In this document: positions 290 to 43,180 of the stretch, one piece after another | Position numbering within the stretch: the stretch's first letter is position 1 | How the letters are laid out: the number at the start of each line of letters is the position of its first letter | Source of the DNA: a virus | Lineage: Duplodnaviria > Heunggongvirae > Uroviricota > Caudoviricetes | IMG/VR virus record: IMGVR_UViG_3300028653_000011 | Direction: 5' to 3' (one strand) | Length of the DNA stretch: 64,000 nt | The notes under the pieces: model-generated | Told to the model about the DNA's origin: nothing | What the model saw: only the letters and a program-made list of their open reading frames with translations | Database searches by the model: none | Translations under genes and position numbers: made by a program

Positions 290-661
290 ATGGCAAACTT
301 GTGGATCAAGGATCAGAACGGCGATCCCAGCGTCATTGTGACACTGGTCGCGGTGTCGTTTGTGGCGGTGACAGTGGGCTACGTGATGTCGCTGTTCGAT
401 CGCATCGGCACCGTGTCAATCAGGCCCTTCGACGTCGCGGCGTGTGGTGCTTATTTCGGGAGCGTGATGGCCGCCTTCGTGGGCCACCATTGGGTGACGA
501 CCAAGTACGTCAATGGTCAAGTCGTCACCGATGATTCGTCGGCGACCGTCACCACGACCCAATCAGGCAGCGGTAACACCGTCACCGCGACGACTGATGC
601 AACGTCGACGACCACGACGATGCCAGTGGTGCCAGGAACGAACCCCGGGGTCACGACATGA
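290..661 (+). CDS. hypothetical membrane protein (2 predicted TM helices, Ser/Thr-rich tail)
   Basis: ATG at 290 in frame with track ORF 236-661. Hydrophobic segments, T/S-rich C-terminus. ATGA overlap with the next gene. Confidence 0.4.
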   Translation: MANLWIKDQNGDPSVIVTLVAVSFVAVTVGYVMSLFDRIGTVSIRPFDVAACGAYFGSVMAAFVGHHWVTTKYVNGQVVTDDSSATVTTTQSGSGNTVTATTDATSTTTTMPVVPGTNPGVTT

Positions 662-1878: not shown

Positions 1879-1884
1879 ACGTCG

Positions 1885-2664: not shown

Positions 2665-2720
2665 TGTCTGGCGCCTGAGCGGGTTGATTAAGCCCAGTCA
2701 GGCCGTCAATTGATCACCGC

Positions 2721-3179
2721 TTACCGAATGTGGACTTCTAGCCCCTGAGGGCCTTGGTGTTCTTGTGAGTGCTGACGATCCTGCTCTTGGCGCTCTTTGT
2801 CCTGTCGCTCTTTGTTCTGTTGCTCTTGCCTCTGTTGCTCCTGAAAATTACGGTCTTGTTGGTCACGTTCTTCGTGCTTGCGCGCCTCTTCTTGTTTCTG
2901 CTTGTCTTCTTGCACACGCTGCTGGCGAAGGCGCTCTGCCTGATTCGCTTGTTCCTGACGTTGCAGCGCTTGCTGAGCGCTGTTCTGTCGCTGTTGTTCC
3001 TGCTGAATCTGAAACTGACGATCGCGCTCGGTGTTGTCAACAACAACGGGCGGGGCTGCGGGCACGAACACCTGTTGTGGCGCCGGCACGGGTTCTGGCG
3101 TGGACTGAACGGGTGCTTGGCAACCGATTGCCACCGTCGACGCGGCGAGTAGTGAGAATAGAATTGACTTGAATTGCAT
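2721..3179 (-). CDS. Q/E/R-rich low-complexity lipoprotein
   Basis: Signal peptide plus lipobox (LLAASTVAIGC), followed by a QQEQQRQ coiled low-complexity region. Convergent with upstream gene. Confidence 0.45.
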   Translation of the reverse strand: MQFKSILFSLLAASTVAIGCQAPVQSTPEPVPAPQQVFVPAAPPVVVDNTERDRQFQIQQEQQRQNSAQQALQRQEQANQAERLRQQRVQEDKQKQEEARKHEERDQQDRNFQEQQRQEQQNKERQDKERQEQDRQHSQEHQGPQGLEVHIR

Positions 3180-3310
3180 GGTATTTCTCCATCGAATACT
3201 TAACTAAGTCAGTGCAATTGTTGTCCACTAATTCGCGATGAATTCTCAATCCGAGCATGTTGAAAGTTCGCGGAATCCTGACAGCGTACCACCCACGACC
3301 TACTTAGATC

Positions 3311-3721
3311 ATGAGCCAGCTGTCTCGCCTTCACGAGAACTTCATTGCCCAGTCCGAGCGACCCATGGACTTCGGTCGGTTACCCATCACTGCGCAGCAG
3401 GCCCAGTCCCCCGTGGTGCCCATGGATCGGTGGCAGGCGATCGACGGTGCCCTGCACAAGACGTACCGCTTTCGGGAATCCGAGCACCGCAACGAGTTCA
3501 TCGTCTCGTGGTTGGCCTACGAGCACCAGACGCAGCACCACGCCCGTTTGACCCTCGACGAGGGTGAGGTCAGCCTCCGCCTCCAGACCCGCGACACCCA
3601 GCGCATCACTGAACTCGATAAGGAAGCGGCTCGCTATGCCGACGTGTTGTACAAGGACCTCGTCTCGCGCCCAACTACGGTGACGTCGTCGGGTGATGAC
3701 CAAGACGCTGACACGTTGTAG
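3311..3721 (+). CDS. pterin-4a-carbinolamine dehydratase (PCD/DCoH)-like protein
   Basis: W..IDGAL.KTYRF ... EHQTQHHA ... VSLRLQTRD pattern matches the PCD fold signature (HHP replaced by HHA). Confidence 0.5.
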   Translation: MSQLSRLHENFIAQSERPMDFGRLPITAQQAQSPVVPMDRWQAIDGALHKTYRFRESEHRNEFIVSWLAYEHQTQHHARLTLDEGEVSLRLQTRDTQRITELDKEAARYADVLYKDLVSRPTTVTSSGDDQDADTL

Positions 3722-3730
3722 GATCGTGCT

Positions 3731-4150
3731 ATGGAGCTCAAGGCACAGTCACCCACGCTGATGATGAGCGAGGCCCTGAAGGGTCGCCTGACCGACGATG
3801 ACGGGGTCGTGGGTGAGGATACACCACCCGTCCTTGCGGTGACCGTCGTTGCCGTCATCAAGGTGGGTGACAAGCAGACGGCGATCGTGGGCCTGCTGAG
3901 GAGCGCGCTGTTCGACACGGACACGCCAGAGCTGGAGTTCAAGGTGCAGCTCTCCGATGCCCTCGACTTCGTCGCCGCCAAGTCGTTGTTGTTTCAAGGC
4001 TTTGAGCTGCACCACGGCGCCACCTGCGCCGTCGCTGTTGAAGGCCCCTTCATCGTCAAGGGTGCCCGGATCGATGACATCAACGTTGTTGAACAATTGT
4101 GCGTGCTGTGTTTGGGCCTCGAACGCACGATTCGCACCGTGACCGCCTAG
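3731..4150 (+). CDS. hypothetical protein
   Basis: 139-aa ORF in a co-directional run. No recognisable domain. Confidence 0.35.
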   Translation: MELKAQSPTLMMSEALKGRLTDDDGVVGEDTPPVLAVTVVAVIKVGDKQTAIVGLLRSALFDTDTPELEFKVQLSDALDFVAAKSLLFQGFELHHGATCAVAVEGPFIVKGARIDDINVVEQLCVLCLGLERTIRTVTA

Positions 4151-4159
4151 TTATTTGCC

Positions 4160-5230
4160 ATGAGTGGCATGGTACCTCGCACGGGTGAAGAGACGCTGAT
4201 CGACATGTCGACGACGGAAGATGACTGCATGGACAGCATGGACCTACAATCAATTGTCGATCGAAACATGGACATTGCCGTCCGGGACAATGGTTACACC
4301 GAGCTTGCCAGCATGTCTCCCGAAAACGCTGCCATTGACTTGTGTACCTATTCACAAGAACTTGAAAACTTTGACATCGACGACGTTGCAGCTTGTGTTA
4401 GTGTCTGGCGAGCGAGTCACAAGCAACTTGAGGATGCCAACCCGCCCATCGACATGTCGATGACGGAAGAGGATGATATAGACACCGAACGCTACGAAGC
4501 GACCGTCACCGTCGCTAAACCCGACGAGGCAGTGAAGAGCGCCAAGCAGTGGAACCTGCGGGCGACGCAAGCGACGGTGGGTCATTCACACGACGTCACC
4601 TTTGAAGGCAACTACGGCGACCTGATGAACTTTATGACGGCATATCTATCGATGTCGAGTGCCGACGCCGATACCTACGTGGATCGGGTACCGGATCGAC
4701 AACAGGAGAGCAGACAGATGACGAAACCGATGAACGAGACGATGGATGATGACATGGACGAAGGCTCTGCCGACGATGAGAAGTCGCCACGTGGTGATGA
4801 GCACGAGTGGCTTGACTTGCCTGACGGCAAGGTCTCACGTGAAGACGACGACGATTTTGCCTCAGGTGGCGGTGCTCTCGCGCCTCACATGAGCGAGACG
4901 ATGGATGACGACGACATGGACGAGGCCGGGCCGCCCCCGCCTCCGTCAACTGCGCCCCCGACGTCAACGCCGCCTCCGACGACCACGCCGCCGACCAAAC
5001 CCTCGTCGACTCCACCACCGTCGAGCACGCCGTCGTCGACCCCACCTACGCCGACCCCTCCCATAAAGACTGAGTCGACAGAGTTCGATCTGTTCATGGA
5101 TCGCATTGTCATCGACGAGGCACGCGTCCGTAAGGTCGATCTCCCGGAGAACAACCCGATGCGGCGCCTGGCCAAGAACTACCAAGAACGACCCATGGGC
5201 CGCACCCGGTTCGTCAAGCGGGGCACGTGA
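4160..5230 (+). CDS. highly acidic hypothetical protein with Pro/Thr/Ser-rich linker
   Basis: Repeated MDDDMDE / DMSMTEEDD motifs and a PPPPSTAPPTSTPPPTTTPPTKPSSTPPPSSTPSSTPPTPTPP tract. Confidence 0.5.
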   Translation: MSGMVPRTGEETLIDMSTTEDDCMDSMDLQSIVDRNMDIAVRDNGYTELASMSPENAAIDLCTYSQELENFDIDDVAACVSVWRASHKQLEDANPPIDMSMTEEDDIDTERYEATVTVAKPDEAVKSAKQWNLRATQATVGHSHDVTFEGNYGDLMNFMTAYLSMSSADADTYVDRVPDRQQESRQMTKPMNETMDDDMDEGSADDEKSPRGDEHEWLDLPDGKVSREDDDDFASGGGALAPHMSETMDDDDMDEAGPPPPPSTAPPTSTPPPTTTPPTKPSSTPPPSSTPSSTPPTPTPPIKTESTEFDLFMDRIVIDEARVRKVDLPENNPMRRLAKNYQERPMGRTRFVKRGT

Positions 5231-5919
5231 TGACAAAGCACGTCAAGTTGACCGACGCCAAGTCGCTGTTCGCCTACATTGACAACGTCTTCGCCGAGGG
5301 CATCAAGAGCACCCTGCACCAGAAGGCGTTGGCCGAGAAGGACAAGCAGGGCACGGGCGGGGGTTCAACCAACGCCAACGATGACCTGTTCGGTGCGGGC
5401 AGTGGTGGCGATGATCAGGGCGGCAGCGATCAAGGCACCGACGACCACACCGACAAACCCAGTTCATCGAAGACGATGGACGACGAGAACAGCAAGCTGA
5501 AGGACGCCGACGTCGAGCCCAAGGACATCGTCGACAAGCTGAACTCGATCAGGAGCGGCAAGTCGTTCAAGGACAGCGCCGTCAAAGGGGCGATGGACGA
5601 GTGGATCAACAGCCTGTCGAAGACTGAGCGCGTTGCGCTGTTCGCCTTCGTCCGCGGCATCGCCCAGATCGTCACCGGTGAAGTGCCCGCCAAGCAGGCT
5701 GAGGAGCCCGGCAAGCACCCGGCCGACATCAAGATGGACAAGACCAACGAACCACACACTAAGGAAGTGCGTCCCAATGTTATTAAGGGTGCTGGGGGCG
5801 ACAAGCCCGCAGGCAGCAAGCACTCGGGCGCCACGAGCCCACAGAAAAAATCGCACGGCACCGATGAGGAGAACACCGACGCGCCGATCAGCGCACCAAT
5901 TCAGGCGAAGCGGCGTTGA
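5227..5919 (+). CDS. acidic hypothetical protein
   Basis: ATGA overlap with the upstream gene. 230 aa, D/G/K-rich. Confidence 0.5.
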   Translation: MMTKHVKLTDAKSLFAYIDNVFAEGIKSTLHQKALAEKDKQGTGGGSTNANDDLFGAGSGGDDQGGSDQGTDDHTDKPSSSKTMDDENSKLKDADVEPKDIVDKLNSIRSGKSFKDSAVKGAMDEWINSLSKTERVALFAFVRGIAQIVTGEVPAKQAEEPGKHPADIKMDKTNEPHTKEVRPNVIKGAGGDKPAGSKHSGATSPQKKSHGTDEENTDAPISAPIQAKRR

Positions 5920-5950
5920 CCACACAACGTGGATGGTATAAGATTAGCGC

Positions 5951-6265
5951 ATGACTGACCCGCAATTCGTCGACATCCGCTACATCCCGCTGCCCATGGG
6001 CGGCACCCTCGAAGTCAAGGTGACGCAGCCGTTTCTCGATCGCCTGCGCGCCCACTTTGGGCTACTGGCACAACAACCCGTGGATGATGATCAGATCAGG
6101 ATGTACTTATACGGTGCAATGGACACGGCCGTCACCAAGGCCGAAGCTGAGGTCAACAAGGATGTCGTCGAACCCAAGCGAAGCAAGAAGAAGGCAAAGC
6201 GAGTCAAGGCGCCTGCTAAGGACGCTGGTAAACCTCGTGGTCGAAAGACGCGTAAGGGAAGCTGA
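5951..6265 (+). CDS. hypothetical protein with basic AT-hook-like C-terminal tail
   Basis: C-terminus KKKAKRVKAPAKDAGKPRGRKTRKGS. Confidence 0.45.
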   Translation: MTDPQFVDIRYIPLPMGGTLEVKVTQPFLDRLRAHFGLLAQQPVDDDQIRMYLYGAMDTAVTKAEAEVNKDVVEPKRSKKKAKRVKAPAKDAGKPRGRKTRKGS

Positions 6266-6466: not shown

Positions 6467-7735
6467 GTGGGAGGTGCGAGCGGGCATCTTCGACATTTGC
6501 ACGACAACCTCGACCTGACGTTCGGGGAGTTGAAGGATGTGTTGTCGTCGGCGGCCGATGGCAAGCTCGAGCGCACCAGTGAAAAACTCGACGGGATCAA
6601 CCTAGTCTTCACGTGGGCGGGTGATCAACTGAAAGTAGCCCGCTCGGGCGGTGACATCAAGAGCGGCGGCATGGACGCTGTAGGTCTGGCGACCAAGTTT
6701 CAGGGGCGCGGCAACCTGGCCGACGCCTTCAACGGTGCCTTCAAGGTGCTCCGCGACGCGGTGGGCTCGCTGAGCGACGCCGTCCGAGCCAAGGTCTTCA
6801 ACGACGGCCGCACCTGGTACTCGATTGAGGTCATCTACTCCAAGAATCCCAACGTCATCAACTATGACGCCAACTACGTTGTCTTCCACGCCAGTCCCGT
6901 CTTCCACGTCTCACGCGCCGGCGAGGTCAAGAAGCTCGACTCTGCTCCCGGCGTGGCCTTGTTGGAGAAGCACGTCGACAACATGCAGCGTGCCCTGACG
7001 CAGCGTAGTTGGCAGGTCAGGGGCCCGGCTCTGGTTCGCCTCAAGAAGCTGAGCGACGGCAACGCCGTCAAACGTGCCTTCACCATGATCGGTCAGGCAC
7101 AGTCGATCGCCGGAGTGGGTGACGATGATACCCTCGGCGATTACCTCGCGGCGCGGATGACTGATGAAGTCGCGGGGCTCGACCTGCCACCCAAGGTCGC
7201 CAAAGCGGTGACGGCTCGGGCGGTGGGCAACCCGGGCGCACCGTCGTTGCTCAACCTGAAGAAGCTCGTCTCGCCCGACCAATATGCCGCCGTCAATCAC
7301 TTTGTCAAGGCATCGCCGGGCCTGCTGAAGAAGTTCATTGAGCCCATCGAGCGTGCCGTCCATGAGTTTGCGATTGAGGCCCTGCGTGGCATGCACTCCA
7401 CGCTCATCGGCAACAACGACGCCGAGGTGCAGCGCCTGCGGGGTGAGGTCGCCCGGGCCGTCAAGGCGATTGAAGCCAGCGGCGACGCCACGGCGATGGA
7501 CGTGTTGCAGAAGCAGATGACGAAGTTGGGTAGCATCGAGAATGTCAGCAGCGCGATGGAGGGCGTTGTCTTCACGTGGAAGGGCAACTCATATAAGTTC
7601 ACGGGTGGGTTTGCGCCTGCCAACCAGATCCTCGGCCTGTTCAAGTACGGGCGCAAGGGCGTAAAGATCCCCGTTCAAGAGGCCTATTTAAGGCACGCGG
7701 TCGCTCGGTTGGTCGCCAATGGGAGACACAGATGA
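6467..7735 (+). CDS. hypothetical protein (possible nucleotidyltransferase/ligase-like motifs)
   Basis: 422 aa. N-terminal EKLDGINLVF (KxDGxN-like) and C-terminal EGVVFTWKG...KFTGG resemble ligase motifs I and IV/V, but the spacing is atypical. Confidence 0.5.
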   Translation: MGGASGHLRHLHDNLDLTFGELKDVLSSAADGKLERTSEKLDGINLVFTWAGDQLKVARSGGDIKSGGMDAVGLATKFQGRGNLADAFNGAFKVLRDAVGSLSDAVRAKVFNDGRTWYSIEVIYSKNPNVINYDANYVVFHASPVFHVSRAGEVKKLDSAPGVALLEKHVDNMQRALTQRSWQVRGPALVRLKKLSDGNAVKRAFTMIGQAQSIAGVGDDDTLGDYLAARMTDEVAGLDLPPKVAKAVTARAVGNPGAPSLLNLKKLVSPDQYAAVNHFVKASPGLLKKFIEPIERAVHEFAIEALRGMHSTLIGNNDAEVQRLRGEVARAVKAIEASGDATAMDVLQKQMTKLGSIENVSSAMEGVVFTWKGNSYKFTGGFAPANQILGLFKYGRKGVKIPVQEAYLRHAVARLVANGRHR

Positions 7736-8541
7736 GGGTTAGGTTGGGCTTGTTGAGAGAGCAGATACGCGCCATTCTGACGGAGTCGCCCGCCTCAAAC
7801 GCATTTGAGAAGCACGTTGCATCAGCCGTAAAGGCCGCCCTTTCTGGGACAGGTGCCAAGATTGAACACGCTGGCTCTTCTGAGTACTCTGACATCCGCA
7901 TTGACATCCCGGGCATTGGGTCATCATTCCTCGAAGTGAAGCTGACGTCAGGTGACAACCTTGGCAACCCACGCCTGCAATACGATGGTAATCAGTGGAT
8001 CGTTGCCGGCGACAGTGGTTCGCCGCTGGCAGCCTATGCAGTAGAGTTCATGAATGAGTCACCCGAAGCGCAGGCCTTCATCAATGACCTCAAGGCGTTC
8101 CTGAAGACTGACACCGTCAGGTTACAAGGCAAGAAGCCCGGGTCGGTAACGTTGCCGCAGATCAAGGCGTTCTTAGCCAAACGACCCAACAAGAACATCG
8201 CTGAGCTTGACAGCGTCGATGCCGCCGCGTTGGCCACACAGCACTATGCCGTCGCCAAGAAGGAACCTGCTCACTACGTACAGGCAGGCGACGACTTCTA
8301 CCTCATGGGTAGTGCAGATCCATTGGACTTGAACCTGGTCAACGATGGGCAGATCCCCGTCCTCAGGGGCATGGGTCGGCTGGCGGTTCGCATTGCCGAT
8401 CGCAGCGCGCGCTATGAGGTACAAGTGTCAGTGAAGATGTGGAAGCACGATCCGAGCCCATTCTCGGCCATGCTGCCGACCTCTAAGGTCAATCCCTTCA
8501 CTGCACTGGCTAAGTCACTGAAGGCCCGCAAGCGCGGCTAA
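7732..8541 (+). CDS. leader-family hypothetical protein
   Basis: ATGA overlap with upstream gene. N-terminal MRVRLGLLREQIRAILTES. Confidence 0.55.
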   Translation: MRVRLGLLREQIRAILTESPASNAFEKHVASAVKAALSGTGAKIEHAGSSEYSDIRIDIPGIGSSFLEVKLTSGDNLGNPRLQYDGNQWIVAGDSGSPLAAYAVEFMNESPEAQAFINDLKAFLKTDTVRLQGKKPGSVTLPQIKAFLAKRPNKNIAELDSVDAAALATQHYAVAKKEPAHYVQAGDDFYLMGSADPLDLNLVNDGQIPVLRGMGRLAVRIADRSARYEVQVSVKMWKHDPSPFSAMLPTSKVNPFTALAKSLKARKRG

Positions 8542-8591: not shown

Positions 8592-9407
8592 ATGCACTAT
8601 CGAGACACCGTTTGGTACACCAGCGCGGTCATGGACTTGAATGCTGAGATTGAGGACCTTGAGGCCCAAAAGTCGCAGCTAGCCGGCATCAAGTCCAACC
8701 TGCGCACGAAGACACAAAAAAACGTCCTGTTGAGCGTCAAGAATCGCCTGAAGAAGAGGCATAAGTGGGCTCACAAGCTGGAGATGGGTGACCTATCGTA
8801 CTTCAAGGCATACGAGCTAATCAGGATACTGGCGGAGCTTGAAGGTCGGTTGTGGTCACCTGCCGAATGCGCCACGTTGGGAGAACCGCGCGCATTGCAC
8901 GAGGGCCCGGGCGAGAAGGCGATCAAGATGCGGTTGGGTCTAACGCTATCATCGTCTACTGGCAGAGACCTGCCCAATGGCGAGATCAAGTGGCTCGACA
9001 ATGGTAAAGGCTCATTACAGGCGATGCAGGTGTCGCTGTGCGGTCAGAAAGCATGGGGCGCCTTCATCTTTGAACAGGCGGAAGCGGGCCTGTTCAGGGG
9101 TCTTGACCCCACTGTCAGGCAGGCGCTCAAGGACGGTGAAGTGCCCAAAAGGATGATCGACGTGCTACCTCTCAACGTTCACCGTGAGCTATGCATGGCA
9201 GTCTTGCCGGCAAAGGTGCTGGCGGGTTACGGTGACATCTACTGTGCCTTCAATTTCGGTTACATCGTAGTGCCTGCCGATGACCTCAATGCCTGGCGTT
9301 TAACAGGCATCTCCAAGGGCCGACCACGCTATGCACTGAACATTGACTATGTCGTCATTAAGTTGCTGATCTCATCGTCCGAGCAGCAACTTGACGTAGT
9401 GGCGTAG
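8592..9407 (+). CDS. hypothetical protein
   Basis: 271-aa ORF with GGAGG upstream. No domain recognised. Confidence 0.5.
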   Translation: MHYRDTVWYTSAVMDLNAEIEDLEAQKSQLAGIKSNLRTKTQKNVLLSVKNRLKKRHKWAHKLEMGDLSYFKAYELIRILAELEGRLWSPAECATLGEPRALHEGPGEKAIKMRLGLTLSSSTGRDLPNGEIKWLDNGKGSLQAMQVSLCGQKAWGAFIFEQAEAGLFRGLDPTVRQALKDGEVPKRMIDVLPLNVHRELCMAVLPAKVLAGYGDIYCAFNFGYIVVPADDLNAWRLTGISKGRPRYALNIDYVVIKLLISSSEQQLDVVA

Positions 9408-10004
9408 CAGCGCCTCGGCGCGGGGCTTGCGAGCCCTGTCGGTCGTCTTGATGTCCTTGGGCGGGTCTTTCGCTCGGGCCGACAATACGTTCCACACTAG
9501 GTCGCGGTCGATGGCTTTGGGCAGGTGCTTGGTGAAGTTGGCCTTGTCACCCGCTCCGAGCCATTGCCGCATCTGGGTGCCCGACACGTTGACGGTCTGT
9601 GACCGCTCGATGGGCCGGAGTTTAATCTGCCCGTGGGCGAGAAGGTTGCCTGCATACTTGCTCAAGGTGGCGTAGTTGGCCTTCAGGTCGTCGGGGTCGG
9701 AGTAGATGTTGAAGGTGTCAGTGGAACCTGCTGTGTCGGCATCGCCCAATTCTTTGTAGACGTGGCCGATGGGTGAGCCACCGTAGGTGACGGTGACGTT
9801 GGCGGGTAGACTGGGCTCGATCGTCTCGTCCCACAGCTTCTTCATGTCGGCGCCGACGATGGGCACCTCACCCGGCCGCGCCCGATCGCTCAACGACACG
9901 TAGAGGTGCACTTCATCGTTGTTGCGCGCGGCGATGTTGACAAGGGCACTATGGCCAGCCTGCCAGGGCTTGAATGATCCCGCGATGATGCCGATCTTTG
10001 CCAA
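9372..10004 (-). CDS. cytidylyltransferase-like nucleotidyltransferase (NMNAT/NadD-like)
   Basis: GSFKPWQAGH (HxGH motif) and VSGTQMRQ (ISSTxxR-like motif). 210 aa. Confidence 0.65.
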   Translation of the reverse strand: MAKIGIIAGSFKPWQAGHSALVNIAARNNDEVHLYVSLSDRARPGEVPIVGADMKKLWDETIEPSLPANVTVTYGGSPIGHVYKELGDADTAGSTDTFNIYSDPDDLKANYATLSKYAGNLLAHGQIKLRPIERSQTVNVSGTQMRQWLGAGDKANFTKHLPKAIDRDLVWNVLSARAKDPPKDIKTTDRARKPRAEALLRHYVKLLLGR

Positions 10005-10041
10005 GTGATAGTGTGCTCCTGTCCGTTATAAGGTAAGTACC

Positions 10042-10497
10042 ATGGACGACAAGAACAAGGTTCGCCGGAAGGCGACTTCATGTGGCGGTCTACCGTGGCG
10101 AGTTCACCTGGGTCGAGTGCAGGTGCTGTTAGTCAAGCAATTTTCACACAGTGACAACTGGGGCGTGCCTAAGGGTCACCTCAAACCCGGTGAATCGCTG
10201 GAGGACTGCGCACGGCGAGAAATTCGTGAGGAGACTGGCATCGACGTTGGGCTGACCGAGCGCCTGCCTGACATCACGACGGTGCACCGTGGTGAGGAAA
10301 AGACGGTGGTGCTGTGGCTAGCGCTGCCCACTGCCGACGTTGAACCCTATCACGACAACCCCGACAGTGAAGTCGCCGATGCGCGTTGGTTCAACATCGA
10401 TGCACTGCCCATGATTCACAACTACCAGCGCACCATTGTCAAACACGGCATCGAGGCGATCAAAGTTGATCTCAACAGCTACGTGCCATCGCCGTGA
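10042..10497 (+). CDS. NUDIX hydrolase
   Basis: Nudix box GHLKPGESLEDCARREIREETGI. Confidence 0.8.
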   Translation: MDDKNKVRRKATSCGGLPWRVHLGRVQVLLVKQFSHSDNWGVPKGHLKPGESLEDCARREIREETGIDVGLTERLPDITTVHRGEEKTVVLWLALPTADVEPYHDNPDSEVADARWFNIDALPMIHNYQRTIVKHGIEAIKVDLNSYVPSP

Positions 10498-10736
10498 ACC
10501 TCGTTGACCTAAAACCCGGCAGCGTGTTTTACTGCCCACACGGTGCCACGATGTGGAGTAAATCTGCGGGGACCGGCGCATCAAAGGCGTTGGGTAGACT
10601 AAACACCCGCGAGCTGTGTTTAGTGGTGGCCTTGACCAAGGAGTCTGTGCTGATCGTGACGTCAGCACCGCGCGCGGTGTGGATCGACAAGATCAGTCAA
10701 CACGGTGACAACGATCGCATCCGCAAGCTGTGGTGA
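10494..10736 (+). CDS. PGD-family small protein
   Basis: LKPGSVFYCPHG ... LCLVVAL ... AVWIDKI. ATGA-coupled. Confidence 0.4.
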   Translation: MNLVDLKPGSVFYCPHGATMWSKSAGTGASKALGRLNTRELCLVVALTKESVLIVTSAPRAVWIDKISQHGDNDRIRKLW

Positions 10737-10776: not shown

Positions 10777-11817
10777 ATGGCGTCCGACAAACTGCTACGT
10801 GAGTTCATCAGTGAGGTGGTGCTGCTCACTGAGGAGGGCGAAGGTGGGGGTGAATACGCTGACTTATCAATGGCAGATGCTACGGGCAGTCCCTACGGCA
10901 TGTCGTTCGGCTCCAACGACGACCTCTACAACACCTTCGTCAAACCCTTCACCGACGTGGTGGGCGTGGCCGCGGGCAAGACCAAGGCCCTGTCACAGAA
11001 GGGTCAAACCCTGGTACGCGTTGCCTTCGAGGCCGTGGCCACGACGCTGGTGCCCATCCTCCGCGACTCCTACGGCGAGATCTTCGAGAAGGAGAAAGAG
11101 GAACTCGACAAGATTCGTCGTGACTACCACGACGTCTTTCAGGCCACTTGGGATGCCTTCGAAGACCACGATGCGTTGCTGGCCGCATTCCTCCATGCGC
11201 CGGCGTCGTTCATCACGTCGCGATTGGCCAAGCAATCACCCAAGGTCGTCATCAAGATGATCAGCGTGCTGACGGGCGGCACCCTCGACACGTGGCTCGA
11301 TAAGGTGAAGAACGCCTTCGGTGTCGAGGGTGGCCCATCAGGTGCCAACAAGCCGGTGCACGGTGGTGACAGTGGGCCCATGGAGAGCACCCTGCATGAG
11401 GATGGGGGTAACCACCCACCCATTGAGCAGGTGCTGACCAGCGACAAGGTGAGGGCCCGTGTCGCCGATGCGCCGGTGACCAAGAAGTTGCAGCAACGTG
11501 GGACGGAGATCACGCGCGGCACCCTGGAGAAGGTCTACAAGCAGGCCAAGGGGGTGTTGGGTGCCAAGTCGCTGGAGCAATTGCAACAGTTGGTGCATAG
11601 ACCGCTCAAGGGCCTCGACAAGATGAAGGGCGTCCCACAACAGGAGCGTCAGGCGGCGGAACAGCAGATCTTGGCGGCGGCGAAAAAGTCGATGCGTGAA
11701 TTCTACACGAAAAACCTCGAGGGTCAGGTGAAGCAGGCGCTCGACCAGGGAGTGCCCGACGACTCGCCTTATATCAGTGACTACCGGCGCGTCATCAGCA
11801 AAATCAAAGCACTGTGA
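10777..11817 (+). CDS. leader-family hypothetical protein
   Basis: Internal ATG of track ORF 10705-11817. N-terminal MASDKLLREFISEVVLL closely parallels the NUDIX 24079 leader MASDRDLLRQLIREVL. Confidence 0.5.
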   Translation: MASDKLLREFISEVVLLTEEGEGGGEYADLSMADATGSPYGMSFGSNDDLYNTFVKPFTDVVGVAAGKTKALSQKGQTLVRVAFEAVATTLVPILRDSYGEIFEKEKEELDKIRRDYHDVFQATWDAFEDHDALLAAFLHAPASFITSRLAKQSPKVVIKMISVLTGGTLDTWLDKVKNAFGVEGGPSGANKPVHGGDSGPMESTLHEDGGNHPPIEQVLTSDKVRARVADAPVTKKLQQRGTEITRGTLEKVYKQAKGVLGAKSLEQLQQLVHRPLKGLDKMKGVPQQERQAAEQQILAAAKKSMREFYTKNLEGQVKQALDQGVPDDSPYISDYRRVISKIKAL

Positions 11818-12490: not shown

Positions 12491-12699
12491 ACCGCGGCAC
12501 CGCCTGCAATGACTGCATCAGGTGTGCAGAGATCAAGGTCGCCGCACGTGGGGTGCGCGCCACTCTTCTTGAACCTGAGTTGAATCGCATGTTCCTGTGT
12601 CCGACGTGTGGCAACAAGCGGTGTCCCAAGGCAACCTACCACGACAACAAGTGCACCGGCTCCAATGCGCCCGGACAGGAAGGCAGCGACTACAAATGA
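12487..12699 (+). CDS. small zinc-ribbon protein
   Basis: CNDCIRC ... CPTCGNKRC. ATGA-coupled on both sides. Confidence 0.45.
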   Translation: MNRGTACNDCIRCAEIKVAARGVRATLLEPELNRMFLCPTCGNKRCPKATYHDNKCTGSNAPGQEGSDYK

Positions 12700-14231
12700 G
12701 TGCCGATATTGAGTGGGATAAATCGGTGATCTTGAACGCTGACAATGAACATCTCCTTGCTTTGCCAGTCATGTCGTTCATCAAGGGATTGGTCGAGCGG
12801 TACGGCGCTAGCGTTGACACGTGTCTCGATGCCCGCAAGCACCGCAGCATCGTTGACTGCGACTTCGCTCGTTCACCCGAGGAGCTCGACTCATCATGGC
12901 GTGCGGCACCCCCACCTGCCGACCTCATCGATCGCCGCGTCGAGATCACCGGGCCGCCCACCCGCAAGGGCGTCATCAATGCTCTCAATTCGGGCGCTGA
13001 CGTCTTCATGGCCGACTTTGAGGACTCATGCTCACCGACGTGGGACAACCTGATCAGTGGTCAGGTCAATCTCTTCAATGCCGTTCGTCGCACCATTACC
13101 TACGACGATCCTACGACGGGCAAACACTACTCGCTCAATGACAAGCCAGCGGTGTTGATGGTCAGGCCCCGGGGCTGGCACCTCAAGGAGAAGCACGTCA
13201 GGCTCGATGGCAAGCCCGTGCCTGCGGCCCTGGTCGACTTCGGTCTCTATGTCTTCAACAATGCACACGAACTGTTGTCACGTGGGTCAGGCCCGTATCT
13301 GTACCTGCCCAAGATGGAGAGTCACCACGAGGCGAAGCTGTGGGACGATGTCTGTTCCTACGCAGAGCAGGTACTCAACCTGCCCATGGGCGCCATTCGC
13401 ACGACGTGCCTGATCGAGACGCTGCCTGCCGCCTTCTGTATGGACCGCATCATCTACGCCCTCCGCGACCGCATCGTGGGCCTCAACTGCGGGCGCTGGG
13501 ACTACATCTTCTCCTTCATCAAGAAGCGCCACGATGACCCGAGCGCGGTGTTACCCGATCGCTCGCTGTTGACGATGGACAAGGCATTCCTCAACGCCTA
13601 CGATGAGCTGTTGGTGCAGACGTGCCACAAGCGCGGCATCCACGCGATGGGCGGCATGGCGGCGCAGATCCCGATCAAGGGCAATGCCGAGGCCAATGAC
13701 GTCGCCATGGAGAAGGTACACACCGACAAGTTGCGTGAAGCAGCGATGGGCCACGACGGCACTTGGGTCGCCCACCCGGGTCTGATCCAGATCGCTCGTG
13801 AGGCCTTCAAGGACTGCGGGCCCAATCAGATCGATCGGCCACGCACCAATCGACCCATCACTCGCGACGAGCTGTTGTTGGTGCCGTCAGGTCCCTGCAC
13901 CGAGGAAGGCCTGCGCCACAACATCAGGGTTGGCATCCAATACCTCGAGGCGTGGTTGAGCGGCAATGGCTGCGTGCCCCTGTACAACCTGATGGAGGAC
14001 GCGGCGACGGCCGAGATCTCACGTGCCCAAATATGGCAGCAACTACACCACGGTGCGATCGTCGGCGGGCGCCCACTGACCTACGTCAGGTTGGCGGACA
14101 TCATCAGCCAAGAAACAATGCCACTGGTGGGCGCGCGGATCGACGATGCGATCAGGTTGTTCATGAAGGTTGCATGCGACCCGCACGAGTTCACCGACTT
14201 TCTGACGCTGCCCGCCTACGACATGCTGTAA
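12696..14231 (+). CDS. aceB: malate synthase A
   Basis: Collinear with E. coli AceB throughout (RRVEITGP, FMADFEDS, GLNCGRWDYIFS, MGGMAAQIP, GHDGTWVAHPGL, CVPLYNLMEDAATAEISR). ATG at 12696 overlaps the upstream stop. Confidence 0.9.
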   Translation: MSADIEWDKSVILNADNEHLLALPVMSFIKGLVERYGASVDTCLDARKHRSIVDCDFARSPEELDSSWRAAPPPADLIDRRVEITGPPTRKGVINALNSGADVFMADFEDSCSPTWDNLISGQVNLFNAVRRTITYDDPTTGKHYSLNDKPAVLMVRPRGWHLKEKHVRLDGKPVPAALVDFGLYVFNNAHELLSRGSGPYLYLPKMESHHEAKLWDDVCSYAEQVLNLPMGAIRTTCLIETLPAAFCMDRIIYALRDRIVGLNCGRWDYIFSFIKKRHDDPSAVLPDRSLLTMDKAFLNAYDELLVQTCHKRGIHAMGGMAAQIPIKGNAEANDVAMEKVHTDKLREAAMGHDGTWVAHPGLIQIAREAFKDCGPNQIDRPRTNRPITRDELLLVPSGPCTEEGLRHNIRVGIQYLEAWLSGNGCVPLYNLMEDAATAEISRAQIWQQLHHGAIVGGRPLTYVRLADIISQETMPLVGARIDDAIRLFMKVACDPHEFTDFLTLPAYDML

Positions 14232-14246: not shown

Positions 14247-15629
14247 ATGGATGACATCAAACGACCCTACACTCCCGCTGACGTCAAGCGCCTGCAGGGC
14301 CGCACCCGAATCGTACACTCGCTGGCCGAGAATGGTGCCGGTCGATTACGTGCTATGATGGTGAACCAATCCGTGCGGGCGTTGGGAGCGCAGACTGGCA
14401 ACCAAGCGGTGCAGATGGTCAAGGCAGGATTGAAAGCCATATATGCGTCAGGTTGGCAAGTTGCCGCCGACGCCAACACGTCAGGCCAGACCTACCCAGA
14501 TCAGTCACTGTACCCCGTCGACAGCGTGCCCACCCTGGTCAGGCGCATCAACAATGCACTGCTCCGTGCCGAGCAGATCGATGCGATGGAAGAGGCAGAT
14601 GGCCAACGCAGCGAGAATCATCGTCACTGGTTAGCGCCCATCGTTGCAGATGCTGAGGCAGGCTTTGGCGGTCACCTCAACACCTATGAACTTGTCAAGG
14701 CGTTGATCGAGGCCGGTGCGGCAGGCATTCACCTCGAGGATCAGCTGTCGAGCGCGAAAAAATGCGGGCATTTAAATGGGAAAGTGCTCATCCCGACGTC
14801 TCAAGCGATCAACAACCTCGTCGCCGCCCGCCTCGCTGCCGACGTGCTCGAGGTGCCGACGGTCATCATTGCTCGCACCGATGCACTGAGTGCGCAATTG
14901 ATAACCAGTGATATTGACGAACGAGATCGCCAGTTCGTTGCACCAACTAGTCGCACTTCGGAAGGTTTCTACCACCTGACGGGCGATCCCATGCAGCGGA
15001 CGATCGCTCGTGGCCTCGCCTATGCGCCCTACGCCGACCTGCTGTGGTTCGAGACGTCAACGCCCGATTTGGCGCAAGCCAAGCAATTCGCTGAGGCGAT
15101 CCACGCACAGTTCCCGGGCAAGCAGTTGGCCTTCAATTGTTCGCCGTCGTTCAAGTGGCGCAAGCACCTGACGGACGATCAGATCGCCTCGTTTCAGGAT
15201 GACCTACACGCGATGGGTTATGTCTTCCTCTTTGTAACCCTCGCGGGTTGGCACGCCAATGCCAGCAGCGTCTTCGAACTGGCGCTCGATTATCACCAGC
15301 GTGGCATGGGTGCCTACGTCAAGTTGCAGGATCGGGAATTCACGCTCGAACAAGCGGGCTACACCGCCGTCAAGCACCAGCGCGAAGCCGGCACCTCATA
15401 CTTCGACGCGATCGTTAGTGTCATCACCGGCGGTACTTCGTCGACGTTAGCGATGAAGGGCTCGACTGAGGCCGAGCAGTTCTCTGAACATGCAACCCCG
15501 TACGGGGTAGGATTACCCTATGGCGAAGAAGTCGAAGAAGAAGCGGGAAAAGACGGTGGTGTGCACGGATGTCGGGCAAGCGAAGTTCGCGCCCCAGCAG
15601 ACGTACGCCCTGACGCTGACCCGGTTTGA
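14247..15629 (+). CDS. aceA: isocitrate lyase, with a ~45-aa C-terminal extension
   Basis: KKCGHLNGK catalytic motif, [22 protein letters not shown], ends ...GSTEAEQF like AceA. The frame then continues ~45 aa further and overlaps the next gene. Confidence 0.9.
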
Positions 15630-23587: not shown

Positions 23588-23588
23588 G

Positions 23589-24089
23589 ATGGGCATCAAG
23601 ATCTTGCGACACTACACTAGCAGTGCACGGCCTCTCATACAGATCGCGGCGTGGGCAGCCGTCGCCGGCACGGTGACGCTGGCACTGGCCACGTGCACGT
23701 CGTGTCACAGCACCGGGGTGCTCATCGTGCCCACCAACCCGCCGACCATCACCGATCAATCGGCATGTGCACAGGCGTGTGGCAACCTCGTGGCACTGGG
23801 TTGCGTGGAAGGCACGCCCATCGACACTCACCAGACGTGTAAGGTCGACGCCGACTGCTTGGGAGTGACAGGCGTCCACGATGAATATCAGACGTGCTCC
23901 GTCGCCTTCACCTGCATGGTCACCTGCGTCAACTTCTGCACCGCGACGGAGAACACCGGCGTGTGGCTCGACCCCACGTGTGCGGCCAAGATCACTTCGT
24001 GTGACCAACTGAGCACCTGTCCGGGCCCACAGACGGCGGGCACCAGCTGCACCGGCCCGGGCTGCAAGGTGGCGCCGAGTGGCAAGTGA
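23589..24089 (+). CDS. Cys-rich lipoprotein
   Basis: Signal peptide plus lipobox (LALATC). More than 20 Cys in 166 aa. Confidence 0.55.
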   Translation: MGIKILRHYTSSARPLIQIAAWAAVAGTVTLALATCTSCHSTGVLIVPTNPPTITDQSACAQACGNLVALGCVEGTPIDTHQTCKVDADCLGVTGVHDEYQTCSVAFTCMVTCVNFCTATENTGVWLDPTCAAKITSCDQLSTCPGPQTAGTSCTGPGCKVAPSGK

Positions 24090-24651
24090 CCGTGACCTGT
24101 TGCGGCAATTGATCCGCGAAGTTCTCACCGACTTCAACACCAAGACGCTCGGCAAGGACGGCGTTGCGGGCAACGTCTTCAACACGGGCCTGACGACGGG
24201 CGGTGCGGGTGTGTTGAAGCAGAACGGCAACATCCTCGATGATGAGGATGCCGACGAACAGCACGACGAACAGAGCACACAGCGGGCGGCGTGCTGTTTA
24301 ATCGTGGGCCACGATGGGACAGTGCTGTGCGTGTCACGGAAGGATGATCCCACCGCTTGGGGCATGCCGGGAGGGAAGGTTGATCCCGGCGAAGACGACG
24401 AGACTGCTGCGGGTCGAGAGTTGACGGAAGAAGTGGGCCTGACAGCGACGGCGCTGCACCCGGTCTTCACTATGCGCGACAGGCAGGGGTTCACAACGAC
24501 AACATTTGCCTGTGAAGTTGACGGCCAGATCAACACCAGCGAATCGGGCGTCATCAGGTGGGTGCACCCGAGCCTGTTGTGCAATGATGCCCACTCGCCG
24601 TTCGCTGCGTATAATCGGGCCCTGTTTGCCGAGCTGGGAGTGAAAACTTGA
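24079..24651 (+). CDS. NUDIX hydrolase with leader-family N-terminus
   Basis: Nudix box GGKVDPGEDDETAAGRELTEEVGL. N-terminal MASDRDLLRQLIREVL. Confidence 0.8.
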   Translation: MASDRDLLRQLIREVLTDFNTKTLGKDGVAGNVFNTGLTTGGAGVLKQNGNILDDEDADEQHDEQSTQRAACCLIVGHDGTVLCVSRKDDPTAWGMPGGKVDPGEDDETAAGRELTEEVGLTATALHPVFTMRDRQGFTTTTFACEVDGQINTSESGVIRWVHPSLLCNDAHSPFAAYNRALFAELGVKT

Positions 24652-24693
24652 ACTGACTTGGGGTAGGATCAGATCTAAGAGGGTCGTCGCTCC

Positions 24694-35429: not shown

Positions 35430-35515
35430 GTGCCTCGCGCTCGTGGACTGACCTATTGTTTACCGACAAGGCACCATCACCACCATCACCACCATCAACT
35501 AGGAAGACAGCTCAC

Positions 35516-43179: not shown

Positions 43180-43180
43180 A

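What the first reader, a model, noticed from the sequence alone, without database searches (positions are those of the whole stretch)
9372..10497. Divergent NMNAT-like adenylyltransferase / NUDIX pair, plus a second, leader-tagged NUDIX: a candidate NAD+/ADP-ribose salvage or anti-defence module
A cytidylyltransferase-fold enzyme with HxGH and ISSTxxR-like motifs (9372-10004, minus) is transcribed divergently from a NUDIX hydrolase (10042-10497). A second NUDIX (24079-24651) carries the putative packaging leader. Phage NMNAT plus Nudix combinations are known to rebuild NAD+ from ADP-ribose or NMN. Several abortive-infection systems work by NAD+ depletion, so a virus-encoded NAD+ reconstitution route is a plausible counter-defence. 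A packaged NUDIX could act immediately on entry.
Basis: inference. Interest (0 to 1): 0.6.

Follow-up and report, generated by a model that had tools for sequence, protein, structure and literature searches.

The report
NadR-like adenylyltransferase partnered with RNA ligase
The three genes are real, but the NMNAT-like enzyme belongs to a large uncharacterised phage family whose constant partner is an RNA-ligase-like protein, not the Nudix next door, so it is more likely part of a possibly virion-delivered RNA-end toolkit than a stand-alone NAD+ salvage pathway.

Summary
All three ORFs exist at the stated coordinates, in a ~359-kb soil jumbo-phage genome. The 210-aa minus-strand protein is a HIGH-motif nucleotidyltransferase. 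It is homologous over its whole domain to NadR-type NMN adenylyltransferases (hhalign 97.6%, E 4.5e-12), but it falls far below every curated family threshold and part of the NMN pocket is deleted. Both Nudix proteins have canonical Nudix boxes. Nudix-B is T4 NudE-like; Nudix-A cannot be assigned to a subfamily.

No Nampt, PnuC or ribosylnicotinamide-kinase gene was found in the 64-kb window. The other ~295 kb of the genome was not examined.

The divergent pairing with Nudix-A holds in six syntenic genomes and is absent in more distant relatives.

The best reading is a new variant of a known kind, an RNA-ligase-coupled, probably capsid-targeted adenylyltransferase.

The parts
9372..10004 (-). 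NT: a 210-aa NadR/NadM-like HIGH-superfamily nucleotidyltransferase. It is the only minus-strand gene in a long plus-strand block.
9375..9416 (-). C-terminal tail of the NT (EALLRHYVKLLLGR). It carries the same helix motif as the N-terminal 'leaders', and its coding sequence overlaps the 3' end of the convergent 271-aa gene.
   Evidence: Conserved in most family members. Best motif-HMM score in the window (the window's own instances were in the training set). Predicted helix at residues 195-207.
10005..10041 (.). 37-bp divergent intergenic spacer between the NT and Nudix-A.
   Evidence: Sequence. No sigma-70-like promoter found. A 27-43 bp spacer is conserved in five other genomes.
10042..10497 (+). 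Nudix-A: a 151-aa Nudix hydrolase with a canonical Nudix box and no assignable subfamily.
   Evidence: Pfam NUDIX 2e-22. All NCBIfam hits fall far below their cut-offs. Best PDB matches are Dcp2, Ap4A hydrolase, DIPP and GPP hydrolase. Phage matches include the Bcep781 portal-Nudix fusion.
6467..7735 (+). 422-aa RNA-ligase-like nucleotidyltransferase and recurrent fusion partner of the NT. It has motif I E-K40-L-D-G and EGVVF...YK377, and its C-terminal tail (AYLRHAVARLV) carries the same tag motif.
7732..8541 (+). 269-aa protein with the N-terminal tag LLREQIRAILTE. It has a possible PD-(D/E)xK-like motif, judged by eye only.
   Evidence: No family hit.
8592..9407 (+). 271-aa protein convergent with the NT. 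It is the NT's most frequent fusion partner, sitting N-terminal of the NT in 10 of 39 multidomain representatives.
   Evidence: BLAST of fusion proteins against window ORFs. Census. Alignment A4 shows invariant GxGE and D. No PDB or Pfam match.
10494..10736 (+). 80-aa ORF between Nudix-A and the 346-aa gene. A gene of this size is called at the same position in relatives.
10777..11817 (+). 346-aa protein with the N-terminal tag DKLLREFISEVVLLTE. Its homologues are fused C-terminal of the NT in P0090, P0130 and P0226.
   Evidence: No family or phage-database hit.
24079..24651 (+). Nudix-B: 190 aa. It consists of the tag (residues 7-16), an acidic low-complexity linker, and a T4 NudE-like Nudix domain (residues ~68-188).
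   Evidence: Pfam 7e-18. 35-37% identity to the NudE of T4-like Acinetobacter phages. Lies 1.7 kb downstream of a phage lysozyme (21856-22395) and a C1 peptidase.

Best explanation
The minus-strand gene encodes a divergent member of the NadR/NadM branch of HIGH-motif adenylyltransferases (shown). It belongs to a large family seen only in phage genomes and phage-like metagenomic contigs. The 'cytitidyltransferase' of T4-like cyanophages is a distant member.

The family's constant partner is an RNA-ligase-like (KxDG) enzyme, which here is the 422-aa gene at 6467-7735. Two further neighbours, the 271-aa and 346-aa proteins, are also partners. This is shown by repeated independent gene fusions and by conserved gene order.

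The following steps are inferred. The NT uses ATP to adenylylate a 5'-phosphorylated nucleotide-like acceptor. The most likely reaction is NMN to NAD+, but part of the NMN pocket is remodelled. It would do this where the ligase-like enzyme works on broken RNA ends, either supplying or regenerating the dinucleotide consumed in end-healing chemistry.

Several module proteins and Nudix-B share a short amphipathic helix tag, LLRxxIRxxL, often followed by L-x-E. I infer that this tag is a T4-type capsid-targeting and cleavage signal, so that these enzymes would be loaded into the head and act immediately after injection.

Nudix-A is a clade-specific add-on to this module. It probably clears dinucleotide or ADP-ribose-type by-products, or 5'-cap-like ends. 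Nudix-B is an independent NudE-type hydrolase carrying the same tag.
For: NT identity:
- Homology to NadR NMNAT over the full domain, with PPAT and NadD controls far weaker.
- S37 and R41 are conserved, as is the Y101-x-D103-x-x-D106 spacing that matches F110/S112/D115 of the NAD-bound phage NadR Bas30_86.

Coupling to the ligase-like enzyme:
- The 422-aa neighbour has the KxDG motif and the ligase fold.
- Of 39 multidomain representatives, 5 carry its homologue. Another 8 carry other KxDG-motif domains, read by eye: 6 of the P0195 type (5 with the motif; weak Pfam RNA_ligase hits in two), the DUF6267 fusion P0150, and P0156. Ten carry the 271-aa homologue and 3 the 346-aa homologue. None carries a Nudix box.
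- Both domain orders occur. The cultured phage Mel-JY01 carries an NT-ligase fusion.
- DUF6267 (KxDG motif) sits immediately upstream of the cytidylyltransferase in P-SSM4, S-RIM44 and S-SZBM1.

RNA-repair setting: Thg1 lies within ~7 kb of the NT in four relatives.

Virion link:
- The S-SZBM1 cytidylyltransferase is homologous to this family (93.6%). It was detected in CsCl-purified virions (PMC9146016).
- It starts MRFRQFIIEAV, and the P-SSM4 homologue starts MKKFSAFLKEA.
- The tag is conserved in orthologues and sits at domain junctions in fusions.
Against: - No enzyme that would consume NAD+ in RNA repair (KptA/Tpt1, sirtuin, 2H, macro) was found in the window.
- The segment holding the NMN contacts E80 and P84 of Bas30_86 is deleted in this family, so NMN may not be the substrate.
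- DUF6267 is called ligase-like only from its KxDG motif (one search found nothing).
- The tag is C-terminal on the NT and on the ligase-like protein, unlike a classical N-terminal capsid-targeting sequence.
- The virion evidence comes from one distant homologue, with 2 peptides.
- The tight divergent NT-Nudix-A pair is conserved in six genomes at 50-60% protein identity. Some direct NT-Nudix coupling therefore remains possible.
Confidence: 0.5

Rival explanations
1. The NT is a true NMNAT and Nudix-A an ADP-ribose or NAD pyrophosphatase, together forming a split NadM-Nudix. They would rebuild or regulate NAD+ as a counter-defence against NAD+-depleting immunity, in the manner of NARP2 or NARP3.
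Against: No Nampt, PnuC or ribosylnicotinamide kinase lies in the window, whereas every NadM-bearing phage surveyed has NadV (PMC9503650). Nudix-A has no NadM-type or ADP-ribose-pyrophosphatase signature. Curated NMNAT thresholds are missed by a wide margin. Part of the NMN pocket is deleted. No NT-Nudix fusion occurs among 39 multidomain family members, whereas ligase-like fusions are frequent. Nudix is absent next to the NT in L007, L012 and L024.
Confidence: 0.15
2. The NT acts directly on RNA 5' ends. It would transfer NMN onto pppA-RNA (post-transcriptional NAD capping) or adenylylate 5'-phosphate RNA to AppRNA for the ligase. Nudix-A would be the matching decapping or de-adenylylating enzyme.
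For: The NT is covalently fused to RNA-ligase-like domains in both orders. NMNAT chemistry (AMP transfer to a 5'-phosphate) is formally the same as ligase steps 1 and 2. The remodelled acceptor pocket could accommodate something other than NMN. Nudix-A's nearest solved relatives include Dcp2 decapping enzymes and Ap4A hydrolases. No post-transcriptional NAD-capping enzyme is known (PMC8131947).
Against: This is purely inferential. E. coli NadR and NadD showed no capping activity (unpublished data cited in PMC8131947). The ligase-like partner keeps its own catalytic lysine and so needs no outside adenylylation. No RNA-binding domain was identified in the NT.
Confidence: 0.1
3. The gene cluster and the fusions reflect co-packaging, not shared chemistry. 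The tagged proteins would be a mixed cargo of injected enzymes whose genes cluster, and sometimes fuse, because they share expression timing and a capsid-targeting tag. The NT would have an independent small-molecule role.
For: The tag appears on functionally unrelated proteins: the 406-aa protein with weak sigma-region-4 hits, Nudix-B, and the 111-aa ORF. The tag lies at fusion junctions, followed by L-x-E. An NT homologue was detected in virions. Mel-JY01's fusion lies beside terminase and prohead-protease genes.
Against: The NT pairs with KxDG ligase-like proteins of at least three unrelated sequence families, in very distant phage groups. That is hard to explain without a functional link.
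Confidence: 0.12
4. The NT is not an NAD enzyme at all. It would be a cytidylyl- or adenylyltransferase for another phosphorylated acceptor, such as a sugar or polyol phosphate, phosphopantetheine or FMN, serving nucleotide-sugar or cofactor synthesis.
Against: Profile comparison clearly favours NadR over PPAT and NadD. The motif is KP-x-(H/Q)-x-GH without the Asp of the FDP-type motif seen in PPAT, NadD and GCT. The ligase association is not explained.
Confidence: 0.1

Closest known systems
NadR-type NMN adenylyltransferase domain (E. coli NadR; phage Bas30_86 of NARP3, PDB 9X6F/9X6H)
   Same: Same fold and the same two nucleotide-binding motifs. Profile-profile homology covers the whole domain (97.6%). 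S37, R41 and the (F/Y)-x-(S/D)-x-x-D motif are conserved.
   Different: No ribosylnicotinamide-kinase domain and no PnuC partner. A 6-residue deletion removes the stretch where Bas30_86 E80 and P84 contact NMN. It scores 26.5 bits against a 341-bit curated cut-off. It has an extra lysine/proline-rich linker and a C-terminal tag helix.
Bifunctional NadM-Nudix (Synechocystis slr0787, Francisella 2qjt; Vibrio phage KVP40 NatV) working with NadV/Nampt = NARP2
   Different: Here the two are separate, divergently transcribed genes. Nudix-A is not of the NadM or ADP-ribose-pyrophosphatase type. No NadV was found in the window. The family never fuses with a Nudix.
'Cytitidyltransferase' (T4-GC 190) plus upstream DUF6267 gene of T4-like cyanophages (P-SSM4, S-RIM44, S-SZBM1)
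   Same: Homologous NT (93.6% to SSZBM1_140). It shares the C-terminal D-x-x-F...(L/M)P motif. A KxDG-motif protein is encoded immediately upstream. The N-terminus resembles the tag. The function is unknown.
   Different: The ligase-like partner belongs to a different sequence family (DUF6267 versus the 422-aa family; no detectable similarity). In cyanophages the NT is co-directional with its neighbours and the tag-like motif is N-terminal. A MazG gene, not a Nudix, lies nearby.
ATP-dependent RNA ligases (Rnl2/Rnl5/REL1/Trl1) and their phage RNA-repair partners (RlaP, Thg1, KptA)
   Same: The partner protein has the ligase nucleotidyltransferase fold, motif I KxDG and motifs IV and V. Some family fusions add a Pol-beta-like GDxD domain. 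Thg1 lies nearby in relatives.
   Different: It has a large helical insertion (residues ~199-354) and no known C-terminal ligase domain. No Pfam RNA-ligase or RlaP (PF10127) hit was found. In the literature read here, no HIGH-type NT has been described as an RNA-repair component.
T4 NudE (gene e.1) family of phage Nudix hydrolases
   Same: The Nudix domain of Nudix-B is 35-37% identical to the NudE of T4-like Acinetobacter phages. It lies close to the phage lysozyme gene, as reported for NudE-type genes (PMC9503650).
   Different: It carries a 65-residue N-terminal extension made of the tag and an acidic linker.
T4 capsid-targeting sequence of internal proteins (MKTYQEFIAE, cleaved at L/I-x-E by gp21; from my own knowledge)
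   Same: A short N-terminal amphipathic motif, hydrophobic-x-(E/Q)-(F/L)-I-x-E, often followed by L-x-E, found on several unrelated enzymes.
   Different: Here it also occurs at C-termini and at internal domain junctions. Neither cleavage nor packaging has been shown for this phage.

Membership tests
NadR/NadM-type NMN adenylyltransferase | (T/H)xGH nucleotide-binding motif after strand 1 | tested here: met
   KPWQAGH here, KPYHAGH in most homologues, with H18 invariant. Gln replaces the first His or Thr in this sequence.
NadR/NadM-type NMN adenylyltransferase | SxTxxR (ISSTxxR-type) motif in the C-terminal subdomain | tested here: met
   VSGTQMR, with S141, G142, T143 and R146 invariant. It aligns to PISATMIR of phage NadR.
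NadR/NadM-type NMN adenylyltransferase | Homology to the NMNAT domain over its full length, stronger than to sister HIGH families | tested here: met
NadR/NadM-type NMN adenylyltransferase | Score above curated family thresholds (TIGR01526, PF01467) | tested here: not met
   TIGR01526 scores 26.5 bits against a cut-off of 341.15, and only over residues 3-42. Pfam gives only Citrate_ly_lig at 19.2 bits against a cut-off of 20.9.
NadR/NadM-type NMN adenylyltransferase | Conservation of NMN/NAD-contact residues (Bas30_86 K10, S37, E80, P84, G89, F110, S112, D115; PMC13464706) | tested here: inconclusive
   S37 is invariant. Y101, D103 and D106 match the spacing of F110, S112 and D115. K10 aligns to Ser. 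The E80-P84 segment falls in a 6-residue deletion.
NadR/NadM-type NMN adenylyltransferase | NMN + ATP -> NAD+ activity | not testable with these tools
   Needs biochemistry.
NARP2 (Nampt/NadV + NMNAT) | A nicotinamide phosphoribosyltransferase in the same genome | tested here: inconclusive
   None was found in the 64-kb window. All six ORFs of 400 aa or more were scanned: four have clear assignments (malate synthase, isocitrate lyase, AAA ATPase, GroEL), one is the RNA-ligase-like 422-aa protein, and one has only weak sigma-region-4 hits. No PRTase family appears. About 295 kb of the 359-kb genome was not examined.
NARP3 (PnuC + NadR with RNK domain) | PnuC transporter gene adjacent, and a kinase domain fused to the NMNAT | tested here: not met
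   The NT is a 210-aa single domain plus tail. No PnuC gene lies in the window.
NadM-type or ADP-ribose-pyrophosphatase Nudix (for Nudix-A) | Specific relationship to ADPRase or NadM Nudix clades, with a Pro 15-16 residues after the Nudix box (Bessman-lab signature, from my own knowledge) | tested here: not met
   ADPRase and NadM-Nudix models score 15-24 bits against cut-offs of 79-449. The best solved relatives are Dcp2, Ap4A hydrolase and DIPP. The Pro lies at +9, read directly from the sequence.
T4 NudE-type Nudix (for Nudix-B) | Nudix box, closest similarity to phage NudE, and linkage to the virion lysozyme or late genes | tested here: met
   Complete Nudix box. 35-37% identity over residues 68-188 to the NudE of Acj9, Acj61 and Ac42. 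Lysozyme at 21856-22395 lies 1.7 kb upstream. These criteria follow PMC9503650.
ATP-dependent RNA ligase (for the 422-aa partner) | Lysine nucleotidyltransferase motif I KxDG plus motifs IV and V | tested here: met
   E39, K40, D42, G43, E365, G366 and K377 are invariant in 37 homologues.
ATP-dependent RNA ligase (for the 422-aa partner) | Ligase adenylyltransferase fold | tested here: met
ATP-dependent RNA ligase (for the 422-aa partner) | Detectable membership of a curated RNA-ligase family | tested here: not met
   No Pfam, PHROG or PDB sequence hit.
Capsid-targeted (T4 CTS-type) internal proteins | Presence in virions and N-terminal cleavage by the prohead protease | not testable with these tools
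   Indirect evidence only. A distant NT homologue was detected in S-SZBM1 virions, and an L-x-E follows many tags.

The most novel reading that the evidence does not exclude
The NadR-like enzyme, physically coupled to an RNA ligase in many phages, may work on RNA 5' ends rather than on free NMN. It could install or exchange an NAD- or App-type cap (post-transcriptional NAD capping, or pre-adenylylation for ligation). Nudix-A would be the matching decapping enzyme. The whole toolkit would be injected from the capsid through a shared targeting tag.
Probability: 0.1. Interest if true: 0.85.

Novelty: new variant of a known kind. Interest (0 to 1): 0.55.

Why it matters
Phage NAD+ reconstitution (NARP1, NARP2, NARP3) is a current topic, and an NMNAT-like gene next to a Nudix would routinely be filed under it. 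This case shows that a very large NadR-related family does not fit that scheme. The family has 1,024 cluster representatives at 50% identity, and it includes the long-unexplained 'cytitidyltransferase' found across T4-like cyanophage genomes. Its conserved partner is an RNA-ligase-like enzyme, and at least one member is a virion protein.

If the coupling is functional, it ties NAD-type adenylyl transfer to RNA end repair or RNA 5'-end modification during the first moments of infection. That would give a concrete candidate for the missing post-transcriptional NAD-capping or AppRNA-forming activity.

The work also yields a testable short peptide tag that may direct enzymes into jumbo-phage capsids.

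Tried and rejected
- Megablast of 25 kb of the window and tblastn of the NT against 50,697 phage records found nothing. tblastn of the 346-aa protein also found nothing.
- Pfam, PHROG and NCBIfam gave only sub-threshold hits to the N-terminal 40 residues of the NT.
- Profile searches of the PDB for the 422-aa and 271-aa families gave no meaningful hit. Nor did a per-member Pfam scan of the 271-aa family alignment. The PD-(D/E)xK reading of the 269- and 271-aa proteins therefore rests on motifs seen by eye.
- The Pol-beta-like C-terminal domain in some fusions is not detected as RlaP (PF10127).
- I tested whether the ligase-like protein resembles NAD+-dependent LigA, including its domain Ia. 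hhalign aligned only motif I, at 0.6% probability, so there is no support for NAD+ dependence.
- DUF6267 showed no profile similarity to the 422-aa family and no PDB hit.
- No sigma-70-like promoter was found in the divergent spacer.
- The AlphaFold-database Foldseek library was unavailable.
- SSZBM1_139, the second virion-detected neighbour in cyanophage S-SZBM1, is not related to the 346-aa protein.
- A whole-genome search for NadV, KptA or PnuC was not feasible, because only +/-10 kb around a gene can be fetched per look-up.
Full report
**The observation**

The three ORFs exist exactly as described.
- The NT lies at 9372-10004 on the minus strand. It is 210 aa, starts with TTG, and has an AGGAG 11 nt upstream.
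- Nudix-A lies at 10042-10497 on the plus strand (151 aa). It is divergent from the NT across a 37-bp spacer.
- Nudix-B lies at 24079-24651 on the plus strand (190 aa).

The window has ~58% G+C and no tRNA genes. It has no DNA-level match in 50,697 phage records. It corresponds to positions ~86,001-150,000 of a 359-kb metagenomic contig that was assembled independently, at 359,321 and 359,340 bp, from different samples. The phage lysozyme, GroEL and co-directional gene blocks indicate a jumbo phage.

**The nucleotidyltransferase**

Curated libraries see only its first ~40 residues, and always below threshold:
- Pfam Citrate_ly_lig scores 19.2 bits against a cut-off of 20.9.
- TIGR01526 (NadR NMNAT) scores 26.5 bits against a cut-off of 341.
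- The PHROG NMNAT family scores 6.8e-5.

It has 75 close homologues, all unannotated and metagenomic, on contigs of up to 357 kb. Their alignment shows an invariant H18 in KP-x-(H/Q)-x-GH, plus VS-x-SDR, YGGSP, YSDP-x-D and VSGT-x-MR. A Lys/Pro-rich linker and a conserved C-terminal E-x-LLR-x-Y-V-R-x-x-L tail follow.

Profile-profile comparison decides between these options.
- Against an alignment of E. coli NadR plus five phage NadR NMNAT domains, the family scores 97.6% (E 4.5e-12) over 155 columns.
- In matched single-sequence tests, NadR gives 86%, PPAT 6.5% and NadD 0.9%.

I mapped the residues that contact NMN/NAD+ in the NARP3 enzyme Bas30_86 (PMC13464706). S37 and the F110/S112/D115 pattern are retained, here as Y101, D103 and D106. 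The E80-P84 loop falls in a 6-residue deletion.

The protein is therefore a genuine but divergent relative of NadR/NadM NMNATs. Its ATP site is intact and its acceptor pocket is partly remodelled.

**The Nudix proteins**

Both have complete Nudix boxes and strong Pfam scores. Neither reaches any NCBIfam equivalog threshold.

Nudix-A's nearest solved relatives are Dcp2, Ap4A hydrolases, DIPP and a geranyl-diphosphate hydrolase. Its phage matches include the portal-Nudix fusion of Burkholderia phage Bcep781.

Nudix-B's catalytic domain is 35-37% identical to the NudE of T4-like Acinetobacter phages. It lies 1.7 kb downstream of the lysozyme gene. Iyer et al. 2022 describe this same pattern for NudE-type Nudix genes, which they predict to be head-packaged (PMC9503650).

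**The NAD+-salvage model**

The window contains no Nampt/NadV, PnuC, ribosylnicotinamide kinase, PRPP-synthetase-like or NadE gene. All six ORFs of 400 aa or more were scanned. Four have clear assignments: malate synthase, isocitrate lyase, AAA ATPase and GroEL. One is the RNA-ligase-like 422-aa protein. The 406-aa ORF has only weak sigma-region-4 hits. The precomputed Pfam tables list nothing relevant.

In surveyed phages every NadM comes with NadV. NARP2 is defined as Nampt plus Nmnat. NARP3 is defined as PnuC plus NadR with a kinase domain. None of these definitions is met in the window. The remaining 295 kb could not be examined.

**What the NT is actually linked to**

A profile search of 1.84 billion cluster representatives found 1,024 relatives, 306 of them at E below 1e-30. 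Of the best 150, 39 are multidomain. I compared their extra domains with the window's ORFs and with each other:

| Extra domain | Representatives | Position relative to the NT |
|---|---|---|
| Homologue of the 271-aa ORF (8592-9407) | 10 | N-terminal |
| Homologue of the 422-aa ORF (6467-7735) | 5 | N-terminal |
| P0195-type domain (KxDG motif in 5 of 6; weak Pfam RNA_ligase hits in P0167 and P0195) | 6 | N-terminal |
| DUF6267, KxDG motif (P0150) | 1 | C-terminal |
| Another KxDG-motif domain (P0156) | 1 | N-terminal |
| Homologue of the 346-aa ORF (10777-11817) | 3 | C-terminal |
| Nudix box | 0 | - |

Five of the six P0195-type fusions, plus P0187, also carry a GDxD, Pol-beta-like C-terminal domain.

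The linkage extends to cultured phages.
- Microcystis phage Mel-JY01 encodes a 639-aa HIGH-NT/ligase-like fusion beside its terminase and prohead-protease genes.
- DUF6267 homologues occur in 466 phage records, mostly cyanophages. In P-SSM4, S-RIM44 and S-SZBM1 the DUF6267 gene sits immediately upstream of the 'cytitidyltransferase'.
- The 'cytitidyltransferase' is itself homologous to this family (93.6%; BFVD hits).

The NT-ligase pairing has therefore arisen, or been kept, with at least three unrelated ligase-like families and in both domain orders. That is strong evidence for a functional link.

**The NT-Nudix-A pair**

The tight divergent pair, with a 27-43 bp spacer, is present in six genomes that also share overall gene order. 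It is absent in three other contexts:
- the more distant relative L007, where the neighbour is a non-Nudix 137-aa protein;
- L024;
- the triple fusion in L012, where the NT runs straight into the 346-aa homologue.

The adjacency may reflect co-regulation within one clade, but it is not a property of the family. In every stand-alone case the NT gene is inverted relative to its neighbours.

**The tag**

The motif LLR-x-x-I-R-x-x-L occurs at these positions:
- the N-termini of the 406-aa, 269-aa, 346-aa and Nudix-B proteins, and probably the 111-aa ORF at 23252-23587;
- the C-termini of the NT and of the ligase-like protein.

It is conserved in orthologues from other genomes. It lies exactly at domain junctions in the fusions. 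It is very often followed by L-x-E and a flexible stretch.

This resembles the T4 capsid-targeting sequence and the gp21 cleavage rule (my own knowledge). The cyanophage homologues begin MRFRQFIIEAV and MKKFSAFLKEA. The S-SZBM1 enzyme was the only enzyme detected in CsCl-purified virions (PMC9146016). Packaging is thus plausible for Nudix-B and also for the NT module. It is not shown for this phage, and the C-terminal position of the tag on the NT is atypical.

**Mechanism**

Shown:
- the fold and family of the NT;
- the ligase-like nature of its partner;
- the recurrent fusions;
- the lack of salvage partners in the window.

Inferred:
- that the NT makes NAD+ or a related adenylylated dinucleotide in support of RNA-end processing by the ligase-like enzyme;
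- that Nudix-A removes dinucleotide or ADP-ribose-type by-products, or cap-like 5' ends;
- that the tagged proteins are delivered from the capsid.

NAD+-dependent RNA repair by phage KptA or sirtuin systems with RNA ligases and Nudix enzymes is documented as a prediction. No such NAD+ consumer was found here, which is the main weakness of this reading. A more radical possibility is not excluded: the NT may act directly on RNA 5' ends, given that no post-transcriptional NAD-capping enzyme is known.

**Verdict**

The NMNAT-like label is reasonable at superfamily level. The NAD+-salvage or anti-defence module is at best a minority reading (~0.15).

The finding is better described as a new variant of a known kind: a NadR-related adenylyltransferase family coupled to RNA-ligase-like enzymes and probably capsid-targeted. 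Nudix-A is a clade-specific neighbour, and Nudix-B is an ordinary NudE-type hydrolase carrying the same tag.

Noticed in passing
window 685-711, 7753-7779, 10795-10821, 24100-24126 (N-terminal); 9375-9416 (-) and ~7680-7732 (C-terminal); weaker candidates at ~23261, ~42.9 kb and ~21.5 kb: A short amphipathic motif, LLRxxIRxxL, often followed by L-x-E, marks the N-termini of at least four or five unrelated proteins and the C-termini of the NT and the RNA-ligase-like protein. It is conserved in orthologues and sits at domain junctions in fusion proteins from other genomes. It may be a capsid-targeting and cleavage signal, or a docking helix.
   Followed up: partly
window 12696-14231 and 14247-15629 (+): The phage encodes both glyoxylate-shunt enzymes side by side: malate synthase (Pfam 1e-102) and isocitrate lyase (1e-101). 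Isocitrate lyase is also present in a 357-kb relative (L002). This is an unusual pair of auxiliary metabolic genes for a phage.
   Followed up: no
window 9372-10004 (-), and L001, L002, L007, L008, L022, L023, L024: In every stand-alone case the NT gene is inverted relative to all of its neighbours. In the window genome, L002 and L008 its 3' end overlaps the convergent upstream gene by 36-82 nt, and in L001 by 4 nt. The reason is unexplained; it could be separate timing or antisense control.
   Followed up: partly
window 25669-26139, 27720-28139, 29137-29991 (+): A cluster of DNA base-excision-repair genes: pyrimidine-dimer glycosylase (Pyr_excise), an HhH-GPD glycosylase (weak hit) and Fpg/Nei (Fapy_DNA_glyco). 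A UDP-glucose-pyrophosphorylase-like gene lies among them at 26306-27370.
   Followed up: no
window 35420-36787 and 37465-39126 (+): An AAA+ ATPase and a full-length GroEL-type chaperonin (PHROG 5.9e-146) are encoded next to each other.
   Followed up: no
window 21856-25452 (+): A phage lysozyme is followed by a papain-like C1 peptidase (22395-23255), a Cys-rich 166-aa protein with a hydrophobic N-terminus (23589-24089), Nudix-B, and a lipoprotein-like 252-aa protein (24694-25452).
   Followed up: no
window 46001-48000; 45267-46894 (-): A low-G+C patch (48.5% against ~58% elsewhere) coincides with a weak GIY-YIG endonuclease hit next to a calcineurin-like phosphoesterase. This probably marks a mobile or recently acquired segment. 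Gene orientation also switches around here.
   Followed up: no
window ~43088-43375 (+) and 51865-52623 (-): Translation-related host-like genes: a small eIF-1a/IF1-fold protein (PF01176) and an M24 methionine-aminopeptidase-like protein (6.4e-47).
   Followed up: no
window 658-1878 (+): The 406-aa tagged protein has weak sigma-70 region 4 hits (E 0.002-0.003). It may be a tagged transcription factor.
   Followed up: no
L029 (Synechococcus phage S-SZBM1 OL473597) 989-4671; L026 (P-SSM4) 4016-6080: In T4-like cyanophages the DUF6267 gene (KxDG motif) lies next to the cytidylyltransferase, downstream of MazG, gp41 and UvsX. SSZBM1_140 and its neighbour SSZBM1_139 were both detected in purified virions. 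This suggests that a long-unexplained cyanophage gene pair encodes virion-associated proteins.
   Followed up: partly
L007 (Logan SRR26556827 contig) 77-547 and 1050-1574: A more distant NT homologue lacks a Nudix neighbour, but NADAR and a weak AAA_28 (NadR-kinase-like) gene lie 8-10 kb away, alongside thymidylate kinase, ThyX, NT5C and ribonucleotide reductase.
   Followed up: no
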